DNA from: SAR324 cluster bacterium
Lineage (GTDB): Bacteria; SAR324; NAC60-12
Direction: 5' to 3'
Length of the DNA: 64,000 nt
NCBI GenBank assembly: GCA_015231885.1
Contig: JADGAT010000001.1
Span: forward strand, 27,436-91,435
Shown: positions 12,702 through 61,913 of the stretch, piece by piece
Numbering within the stretch: the first letter of the stretch is position 1
Layout of the letters: every line of letters starts with the position of its first letter
Translations under genes and position numbers: made by a program
Notes under the pieces: model-generated
Told to the model about the DNA's origin: nothing
The model's input: the letters and a program-made list of their open reading frames with translations, nothing else
Database searches by the model: none

Positions 12702-12859
12702 CTAAGGAAGGCGAAAATAATAACATGAGAAAGTTATGCGGGATTTTCATCGAGATTCAAGGCGTTTTATCGGGCGCATAGCTTGCACCGGTAAAGCAAC
12801 GCAGAAGATCGTTGAAAAGACAAGTAGATTTGCTAAGTTATTGTTTGAGCATTCCTAAG
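12702..12859 (+). repeat. dispersed ~158 bp MITE-like repeat, copy 1
   Basis: Sequence CTAAGGAAGGCGAAAATAATAAC...GTTATTGTTTGAGCATTCCTAAG. About 23 bp imperfect terminal inverted repeat, flanked by TAA on both sides. Confidence 0.85.
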
Positions 12860-14776: not shown

Positions 14777-14833
14777 TTATCTCTTCATAAATCCAGCATT
14801 TATTTGCAAAAAACACTTATCACCCTTTCATTG

Positions 14834-14979
14834 GAAGGCAAAAATAATACATGCTAAAGTTATGCAGGATTTTCAACGAGATTCAAGACGCTTTATTGGT
14901 TACATAAGCCGGTAAGGCAATGCAGAAGATCGTTAAAAAGGCAAATAGATTTGGTGAGTTATTGTTTGAGCATTCCTTA
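14834..14979 (+). repeat. MITE-like repeat, copy 2 (diverged; fills the yceD-rpmF intergenic region)
   Basis: Aligns with the family over GGAAGGCAAAAATAATACATG...GTTATTGTTTGAGCATTCCTTA, with multiple substitutions and indels. Confidence 0.7.
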
Positions 14980-22886: not shown

Positions 22887-23049
22887 CTAAGGAAGGCGAA
22901 AATAATAACATGTGAAAGTTACGCAAGATTTTCATCGAGGTTCAAGGCGTTTTATCGGGCGCATAGCTTGCTATGTCACTGGTAAAGCAACGCAGAAGAT
23001 CGTTGAAAAGACAAGTAGATTTGCTAAGTTATGTTTGAGCATTCCTAAG
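22887..23049 (+). repeat. MITE-like repeat, copy 3
   Basis: Near-identical to copy 1 with an 8 bp internal variant. Followed by a second copy of the TAAGGAAGGCGAAAATAA left-end sequence, which supplies the metX-like RBS. Confidence 0.85.
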
Positions 23050-23064
23050 GAAGGCGAAAATAAA

Positions 23065-24138
23065 ATGATTGTTGAAAGTAAAAGATTACAACTTTCCCAA
23101 CCTTTCTACACAGAAAATGGGGATGTCATTGAAAAGCCTATAGTTGCTTATGAAGAATATGGTCAAAAAGAAGGCCACGTTGTATTGGCCCTTCATGGAG
23201 GGTTAAACAGTCATCATGTTGCAGGAAAGTATGCTGCTGAGGATCGAAAATCAGGAGAGTGGGATGGTTTGATTGGTCCTGGAAAAGCAATTGATACAAA
23301 CCTCTATCGTGTGATTGCTCCAAATGCTTTGGGCAGTATGTACGGAACGTCCTCGCCGTTAACCCTGAACCCTGATACAAAACAACCCTGGGGTGCGGAT
23401 TTCCCAAATATTACATTTATTGACATGGCTCATTTCCATAAAGTATTTCTGGAAGAAATAGGAGTGTCTAAAGTATTCATGAGTGCAGGCCCTTCGATGG
23501 GTGCACTACAATCCCTTCAATTGGCCGCACTCTATCCAGATTTGATGGACAGTGTCGTGGCAGTAGCATCTTCAGGAAGGATGACTCCTTCGGGAATGTG
23601 CATGCATCACTTTATCATGAATGCCATGCGCATGGACCCTGACTTCAATGAGGGCCGGTATGAAATTGGTACACCAAAATTGGGTTTGCGCTATGTTCAC
23701 CAGGTCATCATGATTTACTATACCCATGAAAGCATCGTCAGGGATTTATGCTGGGACGAAACTTCTCAAGAGAAAAGAAGTGAAAAAGCCCGAAATTTTA
23801 TAACTCCTCATTACATAGAAGAACACCTCCAAACATTAGATCCCAATTGTTTTATCCGGGTTCTCAATGCACTGAATTCTTATGATCTGGCAAAAGGAGC
23901 ATCAAGCTACGAGAAGGGTGTGCAGCGTATTCAATGTCCTGTTTTAATGATGAATGTTGACACCGATCAAGAATTTCCCCCCTACTGGGCCGAAGAAGTC
24001 GCTAATATTTTAAACCAGAAGAATCCAGGTCAAGCAGAGGCTATCACTATTCGTTCCAAGTGGGGGCATGCAGGGTGTCTAAAAGAAATGCAAACCATGG
24101 GGGAACATATCAAAGCCTTTATCAAACGGATTTCTTAA
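23065..24138 (+). CDS. metX: homoserine O-acetyltransferase family alpha/beta hydrolase (MetX-like)
   Basis: LALHGGLNSHH oxyanion region, nucleophile elbow GPSMGALQS, about 358 aa. The start at 23065 is preceded by AAGGAAGG. The longer ORF beginning at 22912 runs through repeat copy 3 and is rejected. Confidence 0.65.
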   Translation: MIVESKRLQLSQPFYTENGDVIEKPIVAYEEYGQKEGHVVLALHGGLNSHHVAGKYAAEDRKSGEWDGLIGPGKAIDTNLYRVIAPNALGSMYGTSSPLTLNPDTKQPWGADFPNITFIDMAHFHKVFLEEIGVSKVFMSAGPSMGALQSLQLAALYPDLMDSVVAVASSGRMTPSGMCMHHFIMNAMRMDPDFNEGRYEIGTPKLGLRYVHQVIMIYYTHESIVRDLCWDETSQEKRSEKARNFITPHYIEEHLQTLDPNCFIRVLNALNSYDLAKGASSYEKGVQRIQCPVLMMNVDTDQEFPPYWAEEVANILNQKNPGQAEAITIRSKWGHAGCLKEMQTMGEHIKAFIKRIS

Positions 24139-53526: not shown

Positions 53527-54300
53527 TCAGGATGTCACTGGTACTAATTCAAATCCAAATTGTTTAGCCTGACGTTTTAGACGTTGTAACGCGTTTGAAT
53601 CCTTTTGAGAGAAATACTCTTCTCCGAGTTCGTGATAGGATTTTCCCTCTTTGAGGATCAAGTAAATAACTTTGAGTATTTTATGAGCAATAGCGACAAT
53701 GGCTTTTTTAGAACCTCGACGGGATTTGAGTCGATAATATTTGGCTTTCCAAAAGCTGTTTTTCTTTTTGACAGCGGCCCAGGCCATTTCCACAAGCATT
53801 TCTCGAAAAAGATGTTTTTTAGCCGGGTTGCTCCCATTGCGTCTTTTGCCGGCACTTTCGTTATTGCCGGGACAAACTCCGGCCCAGTTGCTCAAGGCCT
53901 CCGGGGATCGAAAGGCCATCAGATCAGGGCCCAATTCGCCTAGAATAGATTGAGAGGCGACTTTATCAATGCCAGGAATTTCATCGAGCCGTTTCAAGGC
54001 TTCTTGATGGTCGCCCATGAGGCTTTCTACTTGCTTTTCAAGAGCGGTAATCTCATTCTCTAGTGTATTCAGGATATGGAGCAAACTCCGTAATTGAAAA
54101 CGATGGTGGTCATTAAAAAAGCCTTGGATAGAACGATATAATTCCTCAGATTTATTAACAAGGGTTCCACGACATTGTTGTTGAACGCCCTCTAAAGTGG
54201 GTTGAGAACATTCAAGTAAATAGCGCATCAAATTTCGACCGGTCACTCCAAAGAGTTCGGAGACCACAGAATCAATTTTGATATTAGCTGTTTCAAACAA
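53527..54300 (-). mobile_element. IS110-family transposase remnant (C-terminal Transposase_20 region only; N-terminal DEDD catalytic domain missing)
   Basis: 257 aa matching the C-terminal two-thirds of IS110-family transposases (LDEIPGIDKVASQSILGELG, HLFREMLVEMAWAAVKKK, AIVAIAHKIL). An in-frame stop lies immediately upstream, and no N-terminal domain is found in any frame of the adjacent 210 bp. Confidence 0.7.
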
Positions 54301-57080: not shown

Positions 57081-59336
57081 ATGAATGACAACGATAAACC
57101 AAAAGGGGGGTTAATAGAAGAACTGAACGAATTACGACAGAAGGTTGCCCTTTTAGAAAAGACTCTTTCTCAAAAGGAAATGCATGCATCTGAAGAAGTA
57201 ACGTCAAGGCTCTATAAGACAAACGAATCCGTTAATCTGCGAAAGCTGGCCGAACAACATTTACCAGCACCTCCACCCATTGATCTGCTGGAATTAACCC
57301 GGGAAGATATCGAGCACTTGTTTCATGAGCTGCAGGTCCATCAGATTGAGTTAGAGCTCCAAAACGATGAGCTTCTCAAAAACCAGCAAGAATTGGAACA
57401 ATCCCGAGATCTCCTTTACGATCTCTATGACCTTGCCCCAGTAGGATATCTGACGGTTAATAAAAGCGGCATCATCCGGAAAGCCAACCTCACCCTGGCA
57501 GCTATGCTCAATGCCGATAAACAAAGTTTGGTTGGCAAGCCGTTATCGCATTTTGTACATCCAGAAGACCAGAATCTGTATTTTTTGAAGGGCAGGGATC
57601 TGTTTAGAAGCCCCAGTTTGAAACAAACTGAGATCAGGATGCTAAACAGTGACGGTTCCTTCTTCCATGCGATGCTGACAGGAAGGAAAACAGAAAATAC
57701 GAAGGAGGCGCGACTGGTTGTTACCGACATCACCCCCCTCAAAAGAACCGAAGAGGCACTGAAGTATGCAGAAAAAGAAAACAAACGTGCTGCGGATATT
57801 GTGGCCAATATAGGCGTGGGGCTTCACATATACCAGTTGGAAGATATTGACGATGATTCTTCTTTGAGGATGATCACTGTCAATGAAGCAGCAGCCGTGA
57901 TGACAGGCATTCCTGCTGGAAAGACGATCGGTAGAACCCTGGATGAGAATTTTCCTGAACTGCGCAGGATGGAAGTGCCCCAAAAGTATGCACAGGTGGC
58001 TCGTTCCGGCATATCAATAGAACTTGGAGAAATCCATTACAGTAATGAACAGATCGGCTTTGCGACATTTTTTGTAAAAGTCTTTCCGCTTCCTGAAAAC
58101 TGCGTGGGAGTTTCGTTTGAGAATATTACCAAACGCAAACTGCTGGAGTCCCAGCTCCATCATTCGCAGAGATTGGACTCCCTGGGAACCCTGGCAGGAG
58201 GGATTGCTCATGAGTTCAATAATATTTTGTCGATTATTCGAGGCTACGGCGACATTCTGCTCCAAAAACTTCCTGAAGACAGTACAGAGAAATCCTATAT
58301 GGAGAACGTCCATACAGCCAGCAGAAGAGCCGTTGATCTGACAAAACAAATCTTAACCTTCAGTCGGATGGAACATCAAAAAAACGATGTACATTACATA
58401 CAGCCTTTGATTAAAGAAGTCCTCAAAATGATGAGAGCCACCTTACCTGTCACCATTGAGATCCAGGAAGATATCGATTCCAATTGCGCCCCCATCCTGG
58501 CAGACCCATCACAAATACATCAAGTACTTGTCAACCTCTTTACCAATGCGTTCCATGCCATGGAAGAGACTGGAGGTCTTCTGACAGTCACTTTAAAGCA
58601 AGAAACCCATAATGGGAATCAGCCGCTGCTATCCGAATTAAAAGGTGATTCGTTTCTGAAGCTGACAGTCAGCGATACAGGATATGGCATTCCAATCGAA
58701 GATCAGGAAAAAATATTTGATCCCTTTTTTACCACAAAAAAAGTAGGTGAAGGAACCGGACTTGGTTTATCCATGGTTCACAGCATTATCAAACAACATG
58801 GAGGCATCATTACGGTAGAAAGTGAGATGAAGACGGAGCAGTGCTCTGGGGGAACCTCTTTCCATATTTATCTTCCGACCGCTTCCAGAAGTTCCGAAAG
58901 CCAGCAGGAAGAAAAAAAGACACTTCCCAGAGGAAGAGGACACATCTTAGTTGTTGATGACGACACGTTGATCACCGAAGTGTACCAAGATATATTGACG
59001 GAAACTGGATATGACGTCACTGCTTTTGACAACGAGTTGGATGCATTGAAAAAATTTCAGCAAAATCCAGATCAATTTGATTTGATTTTTACAGACTTCA
59101 CCATGCCTCACTTAACCGGAGATCAGTTGAGCCAACAAATATTAAAGATCCGACCCGACATTCCCATTATTCTGACAACAGGTTACAGCAATATGATCTC
59201 TGAAAAAAAAGCAAAAGCTCTTGGAATTCAAGAATTTTTGATGAAGCCTGTTGAAAAAATTCAGCTGCTTGAAACCATTCAGAAGCTGCTTAAAAAGAAT
59301 CCAGAAAATAACCATTCAAATACGATTTTTTCTTGA
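57081..59336 (+). CDS. PAS-domain hybrid sensor histidine kinase (coiled coil, PAS, HisKA, HATPase_c, receiver)
   Basis: H-box IAHEFNNIL, N/G boxes (NLFTNAFHAM, DTGYGIP, GTGLGLS) and a C-terminal receiver (ILVVDDD...DLIFTDFTMP). Confidence 0.8.
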   Translation: MNDNDKPKGGLIEELNELRQKVALLEKTLSQKEMHASEEVTSRLYKTNESVNLRKLAEQHLPAPPPIDLLELTREDIEHLFHELQVHQIELELQNDELLKNQQELEQSRDLLYDLYDLAPVGYLTVNKSGIIRKANLTLAAMLNADKQSLVGKPLSHFVHPEDQNLYFLKGRDLFRSPSLKQTEIRMLNSDGSFFHAMLTGRKTENTKEARLVVTDITPLKRTEEALKYAEKENKRAADIVANIGVGLHIYQLEDIDDDSSLRMITVNEAAAVMTGIPAGKTIGRTLDENFPELRRMEVPQKYAQVARSGISIELGEIHYSNEQIGFATFFVKVFPLPENCVGVSFENITKRKLLESQLHHSQRLDSLGTLAGGIAHEFNNILSIIRGYGDILLQKLPEDSTEKSYMENVHTASRRAVDLTKQILTFSRMEHQKNDVHYIQPLIKEVLKMMRATLPVTIEIQEDIDSNCAPILADPSQIHQVLVNLFTNAFHAMEETGGLLTVTLKQETHNGNQPLLSELKGDSFLKLTVSDTGYGIPIEDQEKIFDPFFTTKKVGEGTGLGLSMVHSIIKQHGGIITVESEMKTEQCSGGTSFHIYLPTASRSSESQQEEKKTLPRGRGHILVVDDDTLITEVYQDILTETGYDVTAFDNELDALKKFQQNPDQFDLIFTDFTMPHLTGDQLSQQILKIRPDIPIILTTGYSNMISEKKAKALGIQEFLMKPVEKIQLLETIQKLLKKNPENNHSNTIFS

Positions 59337-59562: not shown

Positions 59563-59886
59563 ATGCCAATCAATTATGAAAAAGAAAAAAATGCTCTTAT
59601 TTTCAAACTCGCAGGAAACATTGCTTGGGAAACCGCACACAGATACAGCGAAGAAATGATGAATTTGGCGGAACAAGAAGATTATGAGTCGATACTGGTC
59701 GACTTTGAAAACGTCGATTTTGTTGACTCAACAGGAGTTGGATTATTAGTCGAGTTATATAAAATCGCACAGACCAGGAAGAAAAAGCTCTCCGTCTGCA
59801 GGATGAAAATGGCCTATAAGCTGGCAATGATTGGATTAGGCAGTATTATTGTCAATTATGACAGCAAAGAAGAGGCTTTGTGTTAA
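59563..59886 (+). CDS. STAS-domain protein (anti-sigma factor antagonist-like)
   Basis: 107 aa with the SpoIIAA-like DSTGVG motif. Overlaps the GTG start of the downstream kinase by 7 nt. Confidence 0.7.
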   Translation: MPINYEKEKNALIFKLAGNIAWETAHRYSEEMMNLAEQEDYESILVDFENVDFVDSTGVGLLVELYKIAQTRKKKLSVCRMKMAYKLAMIGLGSIIVNYDSKEEALC

Positions 59887-61913
59887 CAGATGATACGGAT
59901 AAAACCATCCGAATACTGGTTATCGATGATGATGCTCTCATTCTCCATGCGACCTCACAGACTTTGAGGTCGGCGGGTTATGAAGTGATAGAGGCATTGA
60001 CAGGCAGGGAAGGGTTGCGCCTGGCCACAGAAATAATACCTGAATTGATTCTTCTTGATGTTGAGCTACCGGATTTGCATGGTTTTGACGTGTGCCGCAG
60101 CATTAAGGCCGATCCGGCACTGGCACACACTTATGTAATGATGATCTCGGGCATCAAGATAAAATCGGAGCACTTGGTAGAAGGTCTTGAAATTGGAGCA
60201 GATGATTATGTGGTACGCCCTGTCCCAAATCGTGAACTTCTGAAACGTGTACAAATTGCGTTGCGCATCAAGCAAACAGAAGAGGAGTTGAAACAACACA
60301 GGGACCAGCTGGAACAATTGGTCGAAAAGCGTACGGCGGAATTACAGGCAAGCAATGCACAGCTGCAGCAGGAAATCACGGAGCGCAAACAGATCGAAGA
60401 TAAGGTCAATAAGCTGGCATTGGCCGTTGAATATAGCCCCAGCATGGTTATGATAACAGATAGCAATGGCATTATCGAATATGTCAATCCTAGATTTGTC
60501 GAAATCACCGGCATCCCGGCTCAAACCATAACTGGGAAAAATGCCAATACCGATTTAGGACTGCCCACCTCAGCAACGGATGATCAAGCAGCACTTTGGA
60601 ATAAAGTCCGTTCAGGGCAATTATGGAAAGGAGAGTTTCATAATAAACGGCATGATGGAACCTTTTATTATGAAGAAGCGTCTATTGCCCCTCTCACAGA
60701 TGAATCCGGCCGCATTACCCACTATATCAAAATTGCCAACGATATCACGGAGCGCAGACAACTTGAGTCTCAGGTACGACAATCCCAAAAACTGGATGCC
60801 TTAGGAACACTGGCAGGAGGAATTGCCCATGAATACAACAATATTTTAGCAATAATACAGGGATATGGAGATCTGTTGCTTTCTAGACTCCCGGAAAACG
60901 GCAAAGAAAAACACTATGTTGAGAAAATACGTGAAGCAGGAAAAAGAGCGGTTGATTTGACAAAGCAAATTTTGACTTTCAGTCAGATGGATAGTCAAAA
61001 ACTCCGAGTGCAATACCTAACCCCCTTGATCAGCGAGTCACTTAAAATGATGAGGGCAACGCTACCTGTCACCATTGATATTCAACACAACCTTGATCCT
61101 GGCTGTTCTCCAATTTTAGCGGATTCCTCCCAAATACATCAGGTACTAGTAAATTTATTTACCAATGCGTCTCATGCGATGGAAACAACAGGAGGTGTCC
61201 TGAAAATCAGCTTGCAGGAAAAGAAACATCATAACACTCAGGAGGTGTTGCCCAAACTAAAAACGGATACTTTTTTAAAGCTGACAGTCCAGGATACAGG
61301 CTGTGGTATACCATCAGAAGATCAGGAAAAAATATTTGATCCCTTTTTTACAACCAGGCAAGTTGGTCAAGGCAGAGGATTTGGACTGTCAGTTGTTCAC
61401 AGTATCATTGAAAAGCACGGAGGGGCGATTACAGTAGAAAGTGTAATCAACCAGGGAACAGCTTTTCACATTTATCTTCCTATTTCTCATGAAACAGTTC
61501 ACGAAGCCCAAGAAAAAAAGAAACAAGAACGATCTCTTTACCAAGGGAAAGGTCACATTTTAGTGGTGGATGACGAAGAGGCACTAGTGGTGATTCATGA
61601 AGCACTATTGACAGACATTGGATACGAAGTCACGAGCTTTACTGACGCATTGGAAGCATTAGCAAAATTCCAAGAAAGTCCATCTCGATTTGATTTGGTA
61701 TTTACCGACTTCACCATGCCTCATTTAACCGGAGACCAATTGAGCCAGCAGCTGTTGAAGATCCATCCCGATATTCCAATTATTATGGCAACGGGTTACA
61801 GCAGTATGATTTCTAAAGAAAAAGCAAAATCCATTGGTATTCGTGAATTCATGATGAAGCCTATTGATAATGATCAGCTGGTTGCCACCATTCAGAAACT
61901 GCTAAATGCATAA
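59880..61913 (+). CDS. hybrid sensor histidine kinase (receiver, PAS, HisKA, HATPase_c, receiver); paralog of the 57081 kinase
   Basis: GTG start. N-terminal receiver (ILVIDDD), H-box IAHEYNNIL and a C-terminal receiver. The kinase core is highly similar to 57081-59336. Confidence 0.8.
   Translation: MLTDDTDKTIRILVIDDDALILHATSQTLRSAGYEVIEALTGREGLRLATEIIPELILLDVELPDLHGFDVCRSIKADPALAHTYVMMISGIKIKSEHLVEGLEIGADDYVVRPVPNRELLKRVQIALRIKQTEEELKQHRDQLEQLVEKRTAELQASNAQLQQEITERKQIEDKVNKLALAVEYSPSMVMITDSNGIIEYVNPRFVEITGIPAQTITGKNANTDLGLPTSATDDQAALWNKVRSGQLWKGEFHNKRHDGTFYYEEASIAPLTDESGRITHYIKIANDITERRQLESQVRQSQKLDALGTLAGGIAHEYNNILAIIQGYGDLLLSRLPENGKEKHYVEKIREAGKRAVDLTKQILTFSQMDSQKLRVQYLTPLISESLKMMRATLPVTIDIQHNLDPGCSPILADSSQIHQVLVNLFTNASHAMETTGGVLKISLQEKKHHNTQEVLPKLKTDTFLKLTVQDTGCGIPSEDQEKIFDPFFTTRQVGQGRGFGLSVVHSIIEKHGGAITVESVINQGTAFHIYLPISHETVHEAQEKKKQERSLYQGKGHILVVDDEEALVVIHEALLTDIGYEVTSFTDALEALAKFQESPSRFDLVFTDFTMPHLTGDQLSQQLLKIHPDIPIIMATGYSSMISKEKAKSIGIREFMMKPIDNDQLVATIQKLLNA

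What the first reader, a model, noticed from the sequence alone, without database searches (positions are those of the whole stretch)
22887..23049. Dispersed ~158 bp MITE-like repeat family, six same-orientation copies in 64 kb
Six copies share one orientation: 12702-12859, 14834-14979 (diverged), 22887-23049, 42484-42577 (truncated), 43793-43955 and 47675-47833. All begin CTAAGGAAGGCGAAAATAA and end GTTTGAGCATTCCTAAG. The first ~23 nt and the reverse complement of the last ~23 nt match at about 19 of 23 positions, so the element has terminal inverted repeats and could fold into a long terminal stem. The flanking triplet is TAA in copies 1, 3 and 6, and TTA in copy 5. That is compatible with a 3 bp TNA/TWA target duplication, as left by some IS5/Harbinger-like transposases. 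No transposase of that type is present in this window. Copies differ by small indels: 8 bp variants occur near GCTTGCTATGTCACTGG and AAGTAGAT. The short internal ORF (ATG...TAG, 18 codons in copy 1) is destroyed by ATGTGA in copies 3, 4 and 5, which argues against a conserved coded peptide. Six copies in 64 kb implies hundreds per genome if the density is uniform. I cannot match the element to a named family from memory.
Basis: seen in the sequence. Interest (0 to 1): 0.75.

Follow-up and report, generated by a model that had tools for sequence, protein, structure and literature searches.

The report
New small transposon family (MITE)
The repeat is a real, previously undescribed family of ~155-bp non-coding "hitch-hiker" transposons (MITEs) in an uncultured SAR324 bacterium. 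They insert at TAA/TTA sites next to genes. This is an ordinary kind of element, with one odd feature: every copy points the same way.

Summary
The window holds six same-strand, intergenic copies of one element, 85-98% identical: five full (144-155 bp) and one left half. Each has imperfect terminal inverted repeats (GGAAGGCGAAAATAAT / GGAATGCTCAAACAAT). Each is flanked by a direct TAA or TTA that changes on both sides together. A related species (about 82% DNA identity) has a clean empty site exactly where copy 2 sits. It also lacks copy 6 and has no copy of the core anywhere in its genome. The termini match the inverted repeats of IS5 at 12/16 and 11/16 positions. TTA/TAA duplications are the PIF/IS5 hallmark. 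I conclude it is a MITE of the IS5/PIF-Harbinger type, moved by a transposase encoded outside the window. It does not code for protein: copies carry frameshifts and show no codon-position bias. It is not a conserved RNA: no Rfam hit, and substitutions within the family break predicted pairs. I also found a second, related, near-perfect palindromic element (47518-47675) abutting copy 6, a 15-nt left-end fragment (plus TSD) abutting copy 3, and two more copies on another contig of the same genome. Unexplained: all elements on a contig share one orientation, tandem pairs are head-to-tail, and the + strand is purine-rich. This is a new member of a known kind, of modest interest.

The parts
12706..12855 (+). 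Family A copy 1 (150 bp), GGAAGG...ATTCC. TSD is TAA at 12703-12705 and 12856-12858. It lies between a uvrD-like gene (+) and a TerB-like gene (-). The TerB gene's stop codon (12855-12857 on the - strand) is made of the last element base plus TA of the TSD.
14833..14976 (+). Family A copy 2 (144 bp), the most diverged copy (85-89% to the others). It sits in the yceD-rpmF spacer, and the rpmF ribosome-binding site remains downstream. The right flank TTA (14977-14979) is native target sequence. The left duplicate is reduced to T (14832).
   Evidence: (empty site in L001)
22891..23045 (+). Family A copy 3 (155 bp). TSD is TAA at 22888-22890 and 23046-23048. It lies between a WD40-repeat gene and a metX-like hydrolase gene.
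23049..23063 (+). Solo left-end fragment (GGAAGGCGAAAATAA). Together with the shared TAA it gives 19/19 identity to the family start (23045-23063), with weaker similarity to about 23079. It sits head-to-tail after copy 3. Its AGGAAGG lies 11-12 nt upstream of the ATG at 23065 of the metX-like gene.
42488..42572 (+). Family A copy 4, a half element. The left arm and central loop are present and the right arm is deleted. The left TAA is at 42485-42487.
43797..43951 (+). Family A copy 5 (155 bp; the first G of GGAAGG is missing). TSD is TTA at 43794-43796 and 43952-43954. It fills the spacer between mfd (-) and a DUF6765 gene (-), so it is antisense to both. The mfd stop codon is the right TSD.
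47679..47829 (+). Family A copy 6 (151 bp). TSD is TAA at 47676-47678 and 47830-47832. It lies in the divergent mfd / sdhC spacer and is absent from the relative.
47518..47675 (+). Family B element (158 bp), GGGTTCGTGCAGAAATAAC...GGTTATTTCTGTACGAGCCC. It is a near-perfect palindrome, homologous to family A and in the same orientation. It is flanked by TAA at 47515-47517 and TAA at 47676-47678, the second shared with copy 6.

Best explanation
[quoted passage not shown] These are non-coding, non-autonomous cut-and-paste DNA transposons, here about 155 bp long.

Proposed mechanism:
- The ends carry imperfect inverted repeats, GGAAGGCGAAAATAAT and its partner GGAATGCTCAAACAAT.
- A DDE transposase of the IS5 / PIF-Harbinger superfamily, encoded elsewhere in the genome, is inferred to bind these ends.
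- The element is inserted at a TWA trinucleotide, preferably within C-TWA-G, and that trinucleotide is duplicated on both sides.
- TAA, and TTA read on the other strand, overlap stop codons. Copies therefore land at or just beyond gene ends without destroying genes.
- Each insertion recreates good targets at both of its flanks. This would explain later insertions that sit directly against resident copies.
- When transcribed as part of a neighbouring mRNA, the whole element can fold into one long hairpin, more stable in the + sense. I found no evidence that this fold is selected.

Shown here: the repeat family, the inverted repeats, the duplicated TWA, an empty site, absence from the sister species, lack of coding constraint, and resemblance of the ends to IS5.

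Inferred only: the transposase, the cut-and-paste chemistry, and any effect on host mRNAs.
For: 1. Family and ends. There are six copies in the window and two on another contig of the same genome, 85-98% identical. Terminal inverted repeats are 18/23 by my count on the consensus. The arms pair along the whole length: 55 Watson-Crick positions of about 82. The RNA fold z-score is -3.05 for copy 3.

2. Target duplication.
- TAA/TAA flanks copies 1, 3, 6 and element B. TTA/TTA flanks copies 5 and 8. Copy 7 has TTA/TCA.
- These are direct repeats, not inverted ones, and the two sides change together.
- Copy 8 has flanks A|TTA|GG...CC|TTA|G. That fits a 3-bp duplication and excludes a 5-bp one.

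3. Empty site. In MAG GCA_028282505.1 (PlsX 92% amino-acid identity, DNA about 82%) the yceD-rpmF spacer reads CCTTTCAT|TTATCC. In the window a 145-nt block is inserted at that point, and the TTA is native target sequence.

4. Lineage restriction. The same relative lacks copy 6. No exact match to the 23-nt core exists in that genome or in any other of the 185,579 species genomes. The one metagenome hit is a chance match inside a gene.

5. IS5-like ends. The IS5 ends on plasmid Rts1 read TTAG|GGAAGGTGCGAATAAG...CTTGTTCGCACCTTCC|TTAG. The MITE ends match these at 12/16 and 11/16. Only 8 of 127,969 window 16-mers reach 12/16 against the IS5 left repeat, and 4 of them are MITE left ends. TTA/TAA duplication is the stated hallmark of the PIF/IS5 superfamily and of Tourist-like MITEs (PMC4565680; PMC5172404).

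6. Context. The flanking genes are unrelated: uvrD, terB, yceD/rpmF, a WD40 gene, metX, mfd, DUF6765, sdhC, cheR/cheB/lon. Their orientations are mixed.

7. Not coding, not a conserved RNA.
- Copies 2, 3 and 6 carry frameshifts, and variable sites fall 8/10/10 over codon positions.
- There is no Rfam match even at E<=1.
- With 7 copies the covariation term is a penalty (+3.74), and many substitutions break pairs.
- Shuffle controls are not exceeded.
Against: - No matching transposase or full-length parent IS was found. The window holds only a truncated IS110-type ORF, and the rest of the genome could not be searched.
- A cut-and-paste element with symmetric ends and a near-palindromic target should insert in either orientation. 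Yet all 8 elements and fragments in the window are on the + strand and both copies on L016 are co-oriented. That gives roughly p = 0.004, if the insertions are independent. All tandem pairs are head-to-tail.
- The + strand is purine-rich (0.56-0.59). As RNA it folds 10-25 kcal/mol better than the - strand in every copy. This asymmetry is not explained by simple selfish spread.
- Copy 2 has no intact left duplicate; a later 2-nt deletion must be assumed.
- A 4-bp duplication (TWAG) with unequal ends is not strictly excluded.
- The IS5 comparison was chosen after the fact from memory. Family B matches IS5 ends less well.
Confidence: 0.75

Rival explanations
1. The element moves by a strand-specific mechanism rather than DDE cut-and-paste. 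One option is single-stranded transposition of the IS200/IS605 (HUH) kind, as in palindrome-associated elements. Another is insertion coupled to the replication fork. In this reading the element inserts 3' of a TWA and carries its own terminal TWA. That would mimic a 3-bp duplication.
For: - All elements on a contig share one orientation: 8/8 in the window and 2/2 on L016. All tandem pairs are head-to-tail with a single TAA between units.
- A diverged relative in another assembly also appears as a tandem pair, with a period of 54 aa = 162 nt.
- The two strands are strongly asymmetric.
- The sequence pattern X-TWA-[element]-TWA-Y fits both models.
Against: - The left and right triplets change together (TAA/TAA versus TTA/TTA). 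That is expected for a duplication, not for a target plus a fixed element end.
- The ends are inverted repeats of each other, IS5-like and beginning GG. They are not separate subterminal hairpins.
- As single-stranded DNA the fold is no better than shuffled sequence: z = -1.0 and -0.5.
- No Y1/HUH transposase gene is present in about 86 kb of this genome.
Confidence: 0.1
2. The element is mainly a functional RNA module, such as an ERIC/REP-like mRNA hairpin or a small RNA gene. In this reading it is kept in the sense orientation because the + strand hairpin stabilises, processes or insulates transcripts, and its mobility is secondary.
For: - The + strand RNA fold is -40 to -53 kcal/mol (z down to -5.8), against -22 to -35 for the - strand.
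- Families A and B differ at 15 of 52 pairs by changes on both sides that keep pairing.
- Four of five copies that lie between co-directional genes are in the sense orientation.
- The + strand is purine-loaded.
Against: - Within family A there are no compensatory changes beyond one pair, and substitutions break pairs freely. The covariation term is a penalty and the shuffle controls are not exceeded.
- The A/B comparison involves only two lineages. Independent fold-back origin of each family would explain it equally well.
- No promoter or terminator motif lies inside the element, and there is no Rfam match.
- Copy 5 is antisense, and copy 4 has lost an arm.
- The sister species does without the element at the same loci.
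Confidence: 0.1
3. The repeat is a conserved regulatory leader, or a small protein gene, shared by paralogous genes. The open frame of about 42-48 codons in copies 1, 3 and 5 would be that gene.
For: The element starts with a strong Shine-Dalgarno-like AAGGAAGG followed by ATG. One reading frame is open across most of the element in copies 1, 3 and 5. Gene callers have called 42- to 63-aa ORFs on several copies.
Against: - The neighbouring genes are unrelated, and the element lies upstream, downstream, sense or antisense to them.
- Copies 2, 3 and 6 carry frameshifts, and copies 3-5 have ATGTGA.
- Variable sites are spread evenly over codon positions.
- The element is absent from the same loci in the sister species.
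Confidence: 0.02

Closest known systems
Tourist-like MITEs and the PIF/Harbinger-IS5 superfamily (e.g. mPIF, mPing)
   Same: Both are small non-coding elements with terminal inverted repeats and TTA/TAA (TWA) target duplication (PMC4565680; PMC5172404). The preferred target here is C-TWA-G. From memory only, and not verified (one search found nothing), maize PIF prefers CWCTTAGWG, which has the same CTTAG core.
   Different: Those families are eukaryotic. Their inverted repeats are 13-25 bp with unrelated interiors, whereas this element is palindromic along its whole length. No transposase partner was identified here.
IS5 (E. coli / plasmid Rts1) and IS5-family insertion sequences
   Same: The ends begin GGAAGG and match the IS5 inverted repeats at 12/16 and 11/16. 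The target is centred on TA within YTAR-like sequence: IS5 on Rts1 is flanked by TTAG.
   Different: IS5 is 1.2 kb, encodes its transposase and duplicates 4 bp. This element is about 155 bp, non-coding, and most simply duplicates 3 bp. From memory of ISfinder, not checked here, a 3-bp duplication is typical of the IS1031/ISL2 subgroups of the IS5 family.
Bacterial MITEs Nezha (Anabaena/Nostoc) and Chunjie (Geobacter uraniireducens)
   Same: The size class is the same (130-235 bp). Both have inverted repeats plus direct repeats and a stable predicted hairpin. Both are mostly intergenic and show filled versus empty sites between related species. Insertion inside an operon without disrupting it is also shared: copy 2 sits in yceD-rpmF-plsX (PMC3184786; PMC10969869).
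   Different: There is no sequence similarity to those families. The parent IS is known for Nezha (ISNpu3) but not here. Uniform orientation and head-to-tail tandem pairs were not among the features noted in the passages I read.
ERIC and Correia elements (enterobacterial and Neisseria repeat elements)
   Same: These are imperfect palindromes of 100-160 bp in intergenic, transcribed regions that fold into long RNA hairpins. From general knowledge, their effects depend on orientation.
   Different: Those elements are flanked by TA or have no clear duplication, and their ends are different. No functional data exist for the present element.

Membership tests
MITE (prokaryotic miniature inverted-repeat transposable element) | Small size (<~500 bp) and no coding capacity | tested here: met
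   The elements are 144-158 bp. Copies carry frameshifts and ATGTGA stops, and variable sites fall 8/10/10 over codon positions.
MITE (prokaryotic miniature inverted-repeat transposable element) | Terminal inverted repeats | tested here: met
   The ends are GGAAGGCGAAAATAATAAC and GGAATGCTCAAACAATAAC. With the flanks they match at 18/23 (my count on the consensus). Every copy matches the reverse strand of the profile. Family B ends match at 17/19, my count on the sequence; the repeat finder reports 27-nt arms 85% complementary.
MITE (prokaryotic miniature inverted-repeat transposable element) | Flanking direct repeats (target site duplication) | tested here: met
   Six of the 8 elements with both ends present have identical TWA on both sides: TAA four times and TTA twice. 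Copy 7 has TTA/TCA, and the left duplicate of copy 2 has decayed.
MITE (prokaryotic miniature inverted-repeat transposable element) | Multiple dispersed copies at unrelated loci | tested here: met
   Six copies lie in the window and two on contig PDZZ01000004. A further ORF-bearing copy (P0241) exists, but its assembly was not identified.
MITE (prokaryotic miniature inverted-repeat transposable element) | Filled versus empty orthologous sites | tested here: met
   A precise empty site for copy 2 exists in GCA_028282505.1. Copy 6 is absent from the same relative, but only the right boundary can be aligned.
MITE (prokaryotic miniature inverted-repeat transposable element) | A cognate autonomous IS with the same ends in the same or a related genome | not testable with these tools
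   The window and about 22 kb of extra sequence hold no such IS.
IS5 / PIF-Harbinger superfamily (as the mobilising system) | TTA/TAA (3 bp) or YTAR (4 bp) target duplication | tested here: met
   TAA or TTA flanks the elements within C-TWA-G. Copy 8 excludes 5 bp, and 3 bp is the simplest reading. A 4-bp TWAG duplication with unequal ends is not strictly excluded.
IS5 / PIF-Harbinger superfamily (as the mobilising system) | Terminal sequence resembling family inverted repeats (IS5: GGAAGGTGCGAAYAAG) | tested here: inconclusive
   Family A ends match at 12/16 and 11/16, against a background frequency of 6e-5 for 12/16 or better. The comparison was chosen after the fact, and family B ends align poorly without gaps.
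IS5 / PIF-Harbinger superfamily (as the mobilising system) | DDE transposase of the family present in the genome | not testable with these tools
   None was found in the sequence available. The only transposase-like ORF is a truncated IS110-family fragment (Transposase_20) at 53527-54300.
IS200/IS605-derived palindrome-associated elements | No inverted repeats or duplication; separate subterminal hairpins; strand-specific insertion 3' of a fixed short target | tested here: not met
   The ends are inverted repeats of each other. The flanking triplets change together. The single-stranded DNA fold is not significant. Only the uniform orientation fits this family.
REP / BIME elements | 20-40 nt GC-rich palindromes with a conserved 5' tetranucleotide, without target duplication | tested here: not met
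   The element is about 155 bp, about 40% G+C by eye, has 16-23 nt terminal repeats and is flanked by TWA.
Known structured RNA family (Rfam) | Match to a curated covariance model | tested here: not met
   There is no hit at the gathering threshold over the window. There is no hit at E<=1 on copy 3 with its flanks.

The most novel reading that the evidence does not exclude
The elements may not be ordinary cut-and-paste MITEs. They could be strand-aware fold-back elements, inserted at TWA sites in a fixed orientation relative to replication, transcription or a resident copy.

That reading would account for three things:
- the uniform orientation on each contig;
- the head-to-tail tandem pairs that share a single TAA;
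- the purine-rich + strand.

A further possibility is that family A arose in this lineage from host DNA. Its right arm resembles the 3' end of mfd, which lies inverted directly beside copy 5.
Probability: 0.12. Interest if true: 0.6.

Novelty: new member of a known kind. Interest (0 to 1): 0.3.

Why it matters
- **Annotation.** Gene callers have produced spurious or over-extended ORFs across these elements. Examples are a 408-aa version of the metX-like gene that reads through copy 3, and 42- to 63-aa "hypothetical proteins". Masking the family would clean up annotation of this SAR324 lineage.
- **Assembly.** Repeats of this kind commonly fragment metagenome assemblies, and this family could contribute to that here. 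I did not test this.
- **Markers.** The family is absent from the sister species, so filled and empty sites can serve as strain or population markers.
- **Biology.** The element shows insertion at stop-codon-overlapping TWA sites that leaves genes and operons intact. The one unusual aspect is the uniform orientation with tandem head-to-tail pairs. If a genome-wide census confirms it, it would point to strand-specific insertion or strong orientation-dependent selection. Either would be worth following up.

Tried and rejected
- **Exact-pattern scans.** A scan of 185,579 species genomes with the 23-nt core gave 0 hits. The same scan of JGI metagenomes gave one chance hit inside a coding region.
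- **Concatenated peptide search.** I searched the 5.8-billion-protein set with concatenated element-derived peptides. Nothing scored. The X linkers in the query may be the reason.
- **Plasmid collection.** A distant-mode search gave only 22- to 32-nt chance matches.
- **Rfam.** Nothing at the gathering threshold or at E<=1.
- **Promoter and terminator scan.** No site lies inside the element.
- **Same-genome polymorphism.** The second assembly, GCA_002753255.1, is 99.9-100% identical to the window and has the same copies, so it is uninformative.
- **Exact-protein look-ups.** Several look-ups at the window ends failed.
- **IS110 bridge-RNA-type mobilisation.** I considered this because a truncated IS110-family ORF is in the window. 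I rejected it: the insertion sites share only C-TWA-G, the elements have inverted repeats, and no copy lies near that ORF.
- **Integron attC sites.** Considered and rejected. The neighbours are spaced housekeeping genes, and the R-box consensus is absent.
- **5-bp CTWAG duplication.** Rejected by copy 8, which has ATTAG on one side and CTTAG on the other.
- **G-U excess on the + strand as evidence of RNA selection.** The count is 5 versus 1, which is not significant. With 7 copies, substitutions break pairs freely.
- **Three-way mfd comparison.** The MITE arm matches the window allele 11 times and the relative's allele twice. I set this aside because the match was found by its similarity to the window sequence, which biases the count.
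- **Literature.** No paper held in the library links SAR324 with MITEs.
Full report
**What is there**

The window is a chromosomal stretch of about 42% G+C from an uncultured bacterium of the SAR324 cluster.
- The best PlsX match is 92% identical, and named hits are SAR324.
- A DUF6765 protein is 100% identical to one from a "SAR324 cluster bacterium" MAG.
- A second assembly, GCA_002753255.1, is 99.9-100% identical over every part I could fetch.

- The start string occurs 5 times against 0.04 expected. The end string occurs 5 times against 0.35 expected.
- The repeat finder, a MAFFT alignment and an nhmmer profile all recover exactly six + strand copies at the stated places.
- All six are intergenic. 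Pairwise identity is 85-98%, and copy 2 is the most diverged.
- Copy 4 is not a random truncation. It is the left arm plus the central loop.

**Anatomy**

With the flanking triplet set aside, each full copy runs from GGAAGG to ATTCC and is 144-155 bp long.
- The first 19 nt and the reverse complement of the last 19 nt are GGAAGGCGAAAATAATAAC and GGAATGCTCAAACAATAAC.
- The complementarity does not stop at the ends. The two halves pair along the whole element, with 55 Watson-Crick positions of about 82. The element is therefore one long imperfect palindrome.
- As + strand RNA, copy 3 folds at -46.2 kcal/mol (z = -3.05). As - strand RNA it folds at -30.6 (z = -1.86). The same asymmetry holds in every copy.
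- As single-stranded DNA the fold is no better than shuffled sequence.

**Evidence that it is mobile DNA**

1. *The flanks.*
   - Copies 1, 3 and 6 have TAA immediately outside both ends, and copy 5 has TTA at both.
   - Two further copies lie on another contig of the same genome (L016). I reached that contig through a spurious 61-aa ORF called on one of them.
   - Of these, copy 8 has TTA/TTA and copy 7 has TTA/TCA.
   - The triplets are direct repeats, and they change on both sides together. This is what a target-site duplication does and what a fixed part of the element would not do.
   - Copy 8 has A|TTA|GG...CC|TTA|G, which rules out a 5-bp CTWAG duplication.
   - A 3-bp duplication with symmetric GG...CC ends is the simplest reading.
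   - The bases around the triplet give a preferred target of C-TWA-G.

2. *An empty site.*
   - In the sister-species MAG GCA_028282505.1 (about 82% DNA identity) the yceD-rpmF spacer reads ...CCTTTCAT|TTATCCATTTGGGAG.
   - The window has the same flanks with 145 nt inserted at that point. The TTA to the right of the element is native target sequence.
   - The left duplicate in this old copy is reduced to a single T. I attribute that to a later 2-nt deletion.

3. *Restriction to this lineage.*
   - The same relative lacks copy 6. Its mfd-sdhC spacer is 248 nt against 432 nt, and homology resumes directly after the element.
   - That genome is in the species collection. The 23-nt core of the element found no match there or in any other species.
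   - The family therefore expanded after the two lineages split.

4. *Context.* The neighbouring genes are unrelated housekeeping genes in every relative orientation. This excludes a shared leader or regulatory region.

**What it is not**

- *Not a protein gene.* One reading frame is open for about 42-48 codons in copies 1, 3 and 5, and gene callers have used it (P0241, P0244). But copies 2, 3 and 6 are frameshifted, copies 3-5 read ATGTGA at the other candidate start, and variable sites fall 8/10/10 over the three codon positions.
- *Not a known RNA.* There is no Rfam match even at E<=1 and no promoter or terminator motif inside the element.
- *No selection for the fold within the family.* With five copies the shuffle controls were not exceeded. 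With seven, the covariation term is a penalty and many substitutions break pairs.

**Which kind of transposon**

- From memory I recognised the ends as IS5-like, and I tested this. My recalled IS5 end is 100% identical to annotated IS5 copies.
- On plasmid Rts1 the element reads TTAG|GGAAGGTGCGAATAAG...CTTGTTCGCACCTTCC|TTAG.
- The MITE ends match the two IS5 repeats at 12/16 and 11/16. Only 8 of 127,969 16-mers in the window reach 12/16 against the IS5 left repeat, and four of those are MITE left ends.
- TTA/TAA duplication is the stated hallmark of the PIF/IS5 (Harbinger) superfamily and of Tourist-like MITEs (PMC4565680; PMC5172404).
The IS5 comparison was picked after the fact. No parent element or transposase was found: Pfam scans of the ORFs, plus the annotation of the sibling assembly, show only a truncated IS110-family fragment at 53527-54300.

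**How it most likely works**

- A trans-acting IS5/PIF-type DDE transposase binds the two ends, excises the element and inserts it at a TWA, duplicating that triplet. This step is inferred.
- TAA and TAG overlap the target. Four insertions sit right on stop codons, and in each case the stop is preserved.
   - For cheR and cheB, the stop is TA of the duplication plus the first G of the element.
   - For the TerB gene, the stop uses the last element base.
   - For mfd, the stop is the duplication itself.
- Copy 2 sits inside the conserved yceD-rpmF-plsX operon and leaves the rpmF ribosome-binding site in place. This resembles the behaviour described for Chunjie.

- *A second family.*
   - The 184 nt to the left of copy 6 are not plain spacer.
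   - Positions 47518-47675 are a second palindromic element, family B (GGGTTCGTGCAGAAATAAC...GGTTATTTCTGTACGAGCCC).
   - It folds at -79 kcal/mol, z = -10.9.
   - It is homologous to family A and in the same orientation (Smith-Waterman score 54, against a maximum of 33 in 968 random segments; nhmmer).
   - The arrangement is X-TAA-[B]-TAA-[copy 6]-TAA-Y. That is what successive insertions into one TAA would give.
- *Compensatory differences between A and B.* They differ at 15 of 52 paired positions by changes on both sides that keep pairing. This could mean the palindrome is needed. It could equally mean each family began as a fresh fold-back of a related IS end. With two lineages I cannot tell.
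- *A left-end fragment after copy 3.* Copy 3 is followed head-to-tail by the first 15 nt of another copy. Counting the shared TAA, identity to the family start is 19/19. Its AGGAAGG lies 11-12 nt before the ATG at 23065 of the metX-like gene, so it may now serve as that gene's ribosome-binding site.
- *A distant tandem relative.* A 132-aa ORF in another NCBI assembly (P0243) carries two stretches, 54 aa = 162 nt apart, that are 48% identical to the element's translation. This suggests tandem pairs of a diverged relative elsewhere.

**What remains unexplained**

- *Orientation.* All eight elements and fragments in the window are on the + strand. Both L016 copies are co-oriented, and every tandem pair is head-to-tail. 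For a symmetric-ended element at a near-palindromic target this is unexpected (about p = 0.004 if the insertions are independent).
- *Strand asymmetry.* The + strand is purine-rich (0.56-0.59). Arm mismatches are mostly purine-purine on the + strand: 11-16 against 0-5 pyrimidine-pyrimidine.
- *Relation to transcription.* Four of the five copies between co-directional genes are in the sense orientation.
- *Possible causes.* These facts fit orientation-dependent selection at the RNA level, or a strand-specific insertion mechanism. I rate each at about 0.1, because the direct tests do not support them (within-family covariation, the single-stranded DNA fold, the paired change of the flanks).
- *Resemblance to mfd.* The right flank of copy 5 is the 3' end of mfd. 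It is an inverted match to the right arm of family A (score 44, against a maximum of 39 in 1,930 random segments). The Mfd C-terminus itself is ancient. The apparent excess of matches to the window allele is biased by how I found the match. I leave this as a curiosity that could hint at the family's origin.

**Verdict**

The finding is correct and its interpretation holds. This is a new, lineage-restricted MITE family, with a sister family, of the IS5/PIF-Harbinger type in a SAR324 bacterium. That makes it a new member of a well-known kind, useful for annotation and as a strain marker, and only moderately interesting. The orientation bias is the one feature that would justify a genome-wide follow-up.

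Noticed in passing
window 47518-47675: A second, related palindromic element (family B, 158 bp) folds at -79 kcal/mol (z = -10.9). It is flanked by TAA on both sides and abuts copy 6 head-to-tail. Only one copy was seen in the sequence available.
   Followed up: yes
window 23045-23079: The first 19 nt of the family (TAA plus the left end) recur directly after copy 3, and weaker similarity runs into the first codons of the metX-like gene (ATG at 23065). The remnant's AGGAAGG may now serve as that gene's ribosome-binding site. The sibling assembly annotates a 408-aa protein that reads through copy 3 from GTG 22912, which is probably an over-extension.
   Followed up: partly
window 43956-44030 (3' end of mfd, - strand): The last ~25 codons of mfd form an inverted match to the right arm of family A, about 65% identity over 62 nt. 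The score is 44, against a maximum of 39 in 1,930 random segments. The match lies directly beside copy 5. It could be chance, a target preference for end-like sequence, or a trace of the family's origin.
   Followed up: partly
window 53527-54300 (- strand): A truncated IS110-family transposase ORF. It has only the C-terminal Transposase_20 domain, and the DEDD domain is missing. It lies in a 1.5-kb spacer between a DUF294 gene and a radical-SAM gene. No MITE copy is nearby.
   Followed up: partly
window 42654-42828: The spacer after half-copy 4 holds another small repeat, AAAATACTTTTGACCTA, twice. It also holds a perfect hairpin (AGGTCAAAA-TAC-TTTTGACCT) and 27- to 30-nt inverted arms. This could be a bidirectional terminator or another small repeat family.
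   Followed up: no
window 58993-59292 and 61606-61905: A 300-nt direct repeat at 78% identity. It is the shared C-terminal part of two neighbouring hybrid histidine kinase / response regulator genes (57081-59336 and 59880-61913), so these are paralogues rather than mobile DNA.
   Followed up: partly
whole window: The target pentamers CTAAG and CTTAG occur 26 and 23 times, against about 71 expected from base composition. Roughly half of the CTAAG occurrences, by my estimate, are the flanks of the MITE copies or an internal GCTAAGTT inside each copy.
   Followed up: no
window 42472-42663, 47438-47773; L016 3229-3414: Short ORFs of 61-111 aa run through MITE copies. The 63-aa ORF at copy 4 and the 61-aa ORF at copy 8 (P0244) are called as genes in the public assembly, and a 42-aa ORF (P0241) comes from a further copy. 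The 111-aa ORF at copy 6 is open but I did not see it called. All are probably spurious.
   Followed up: partly
P0243 (132 aa, an NCBI contig of 6.5 kb, organism unknown): Two stretches, 54 aa (162 nt) apart, are 48% identical to the translated element (E = 2.5e-6 against 1.8 billion proteins). This is probably a tandem pair of a diverged relative of the family in another genome. The contig could not be fetched.
   Followed up: no
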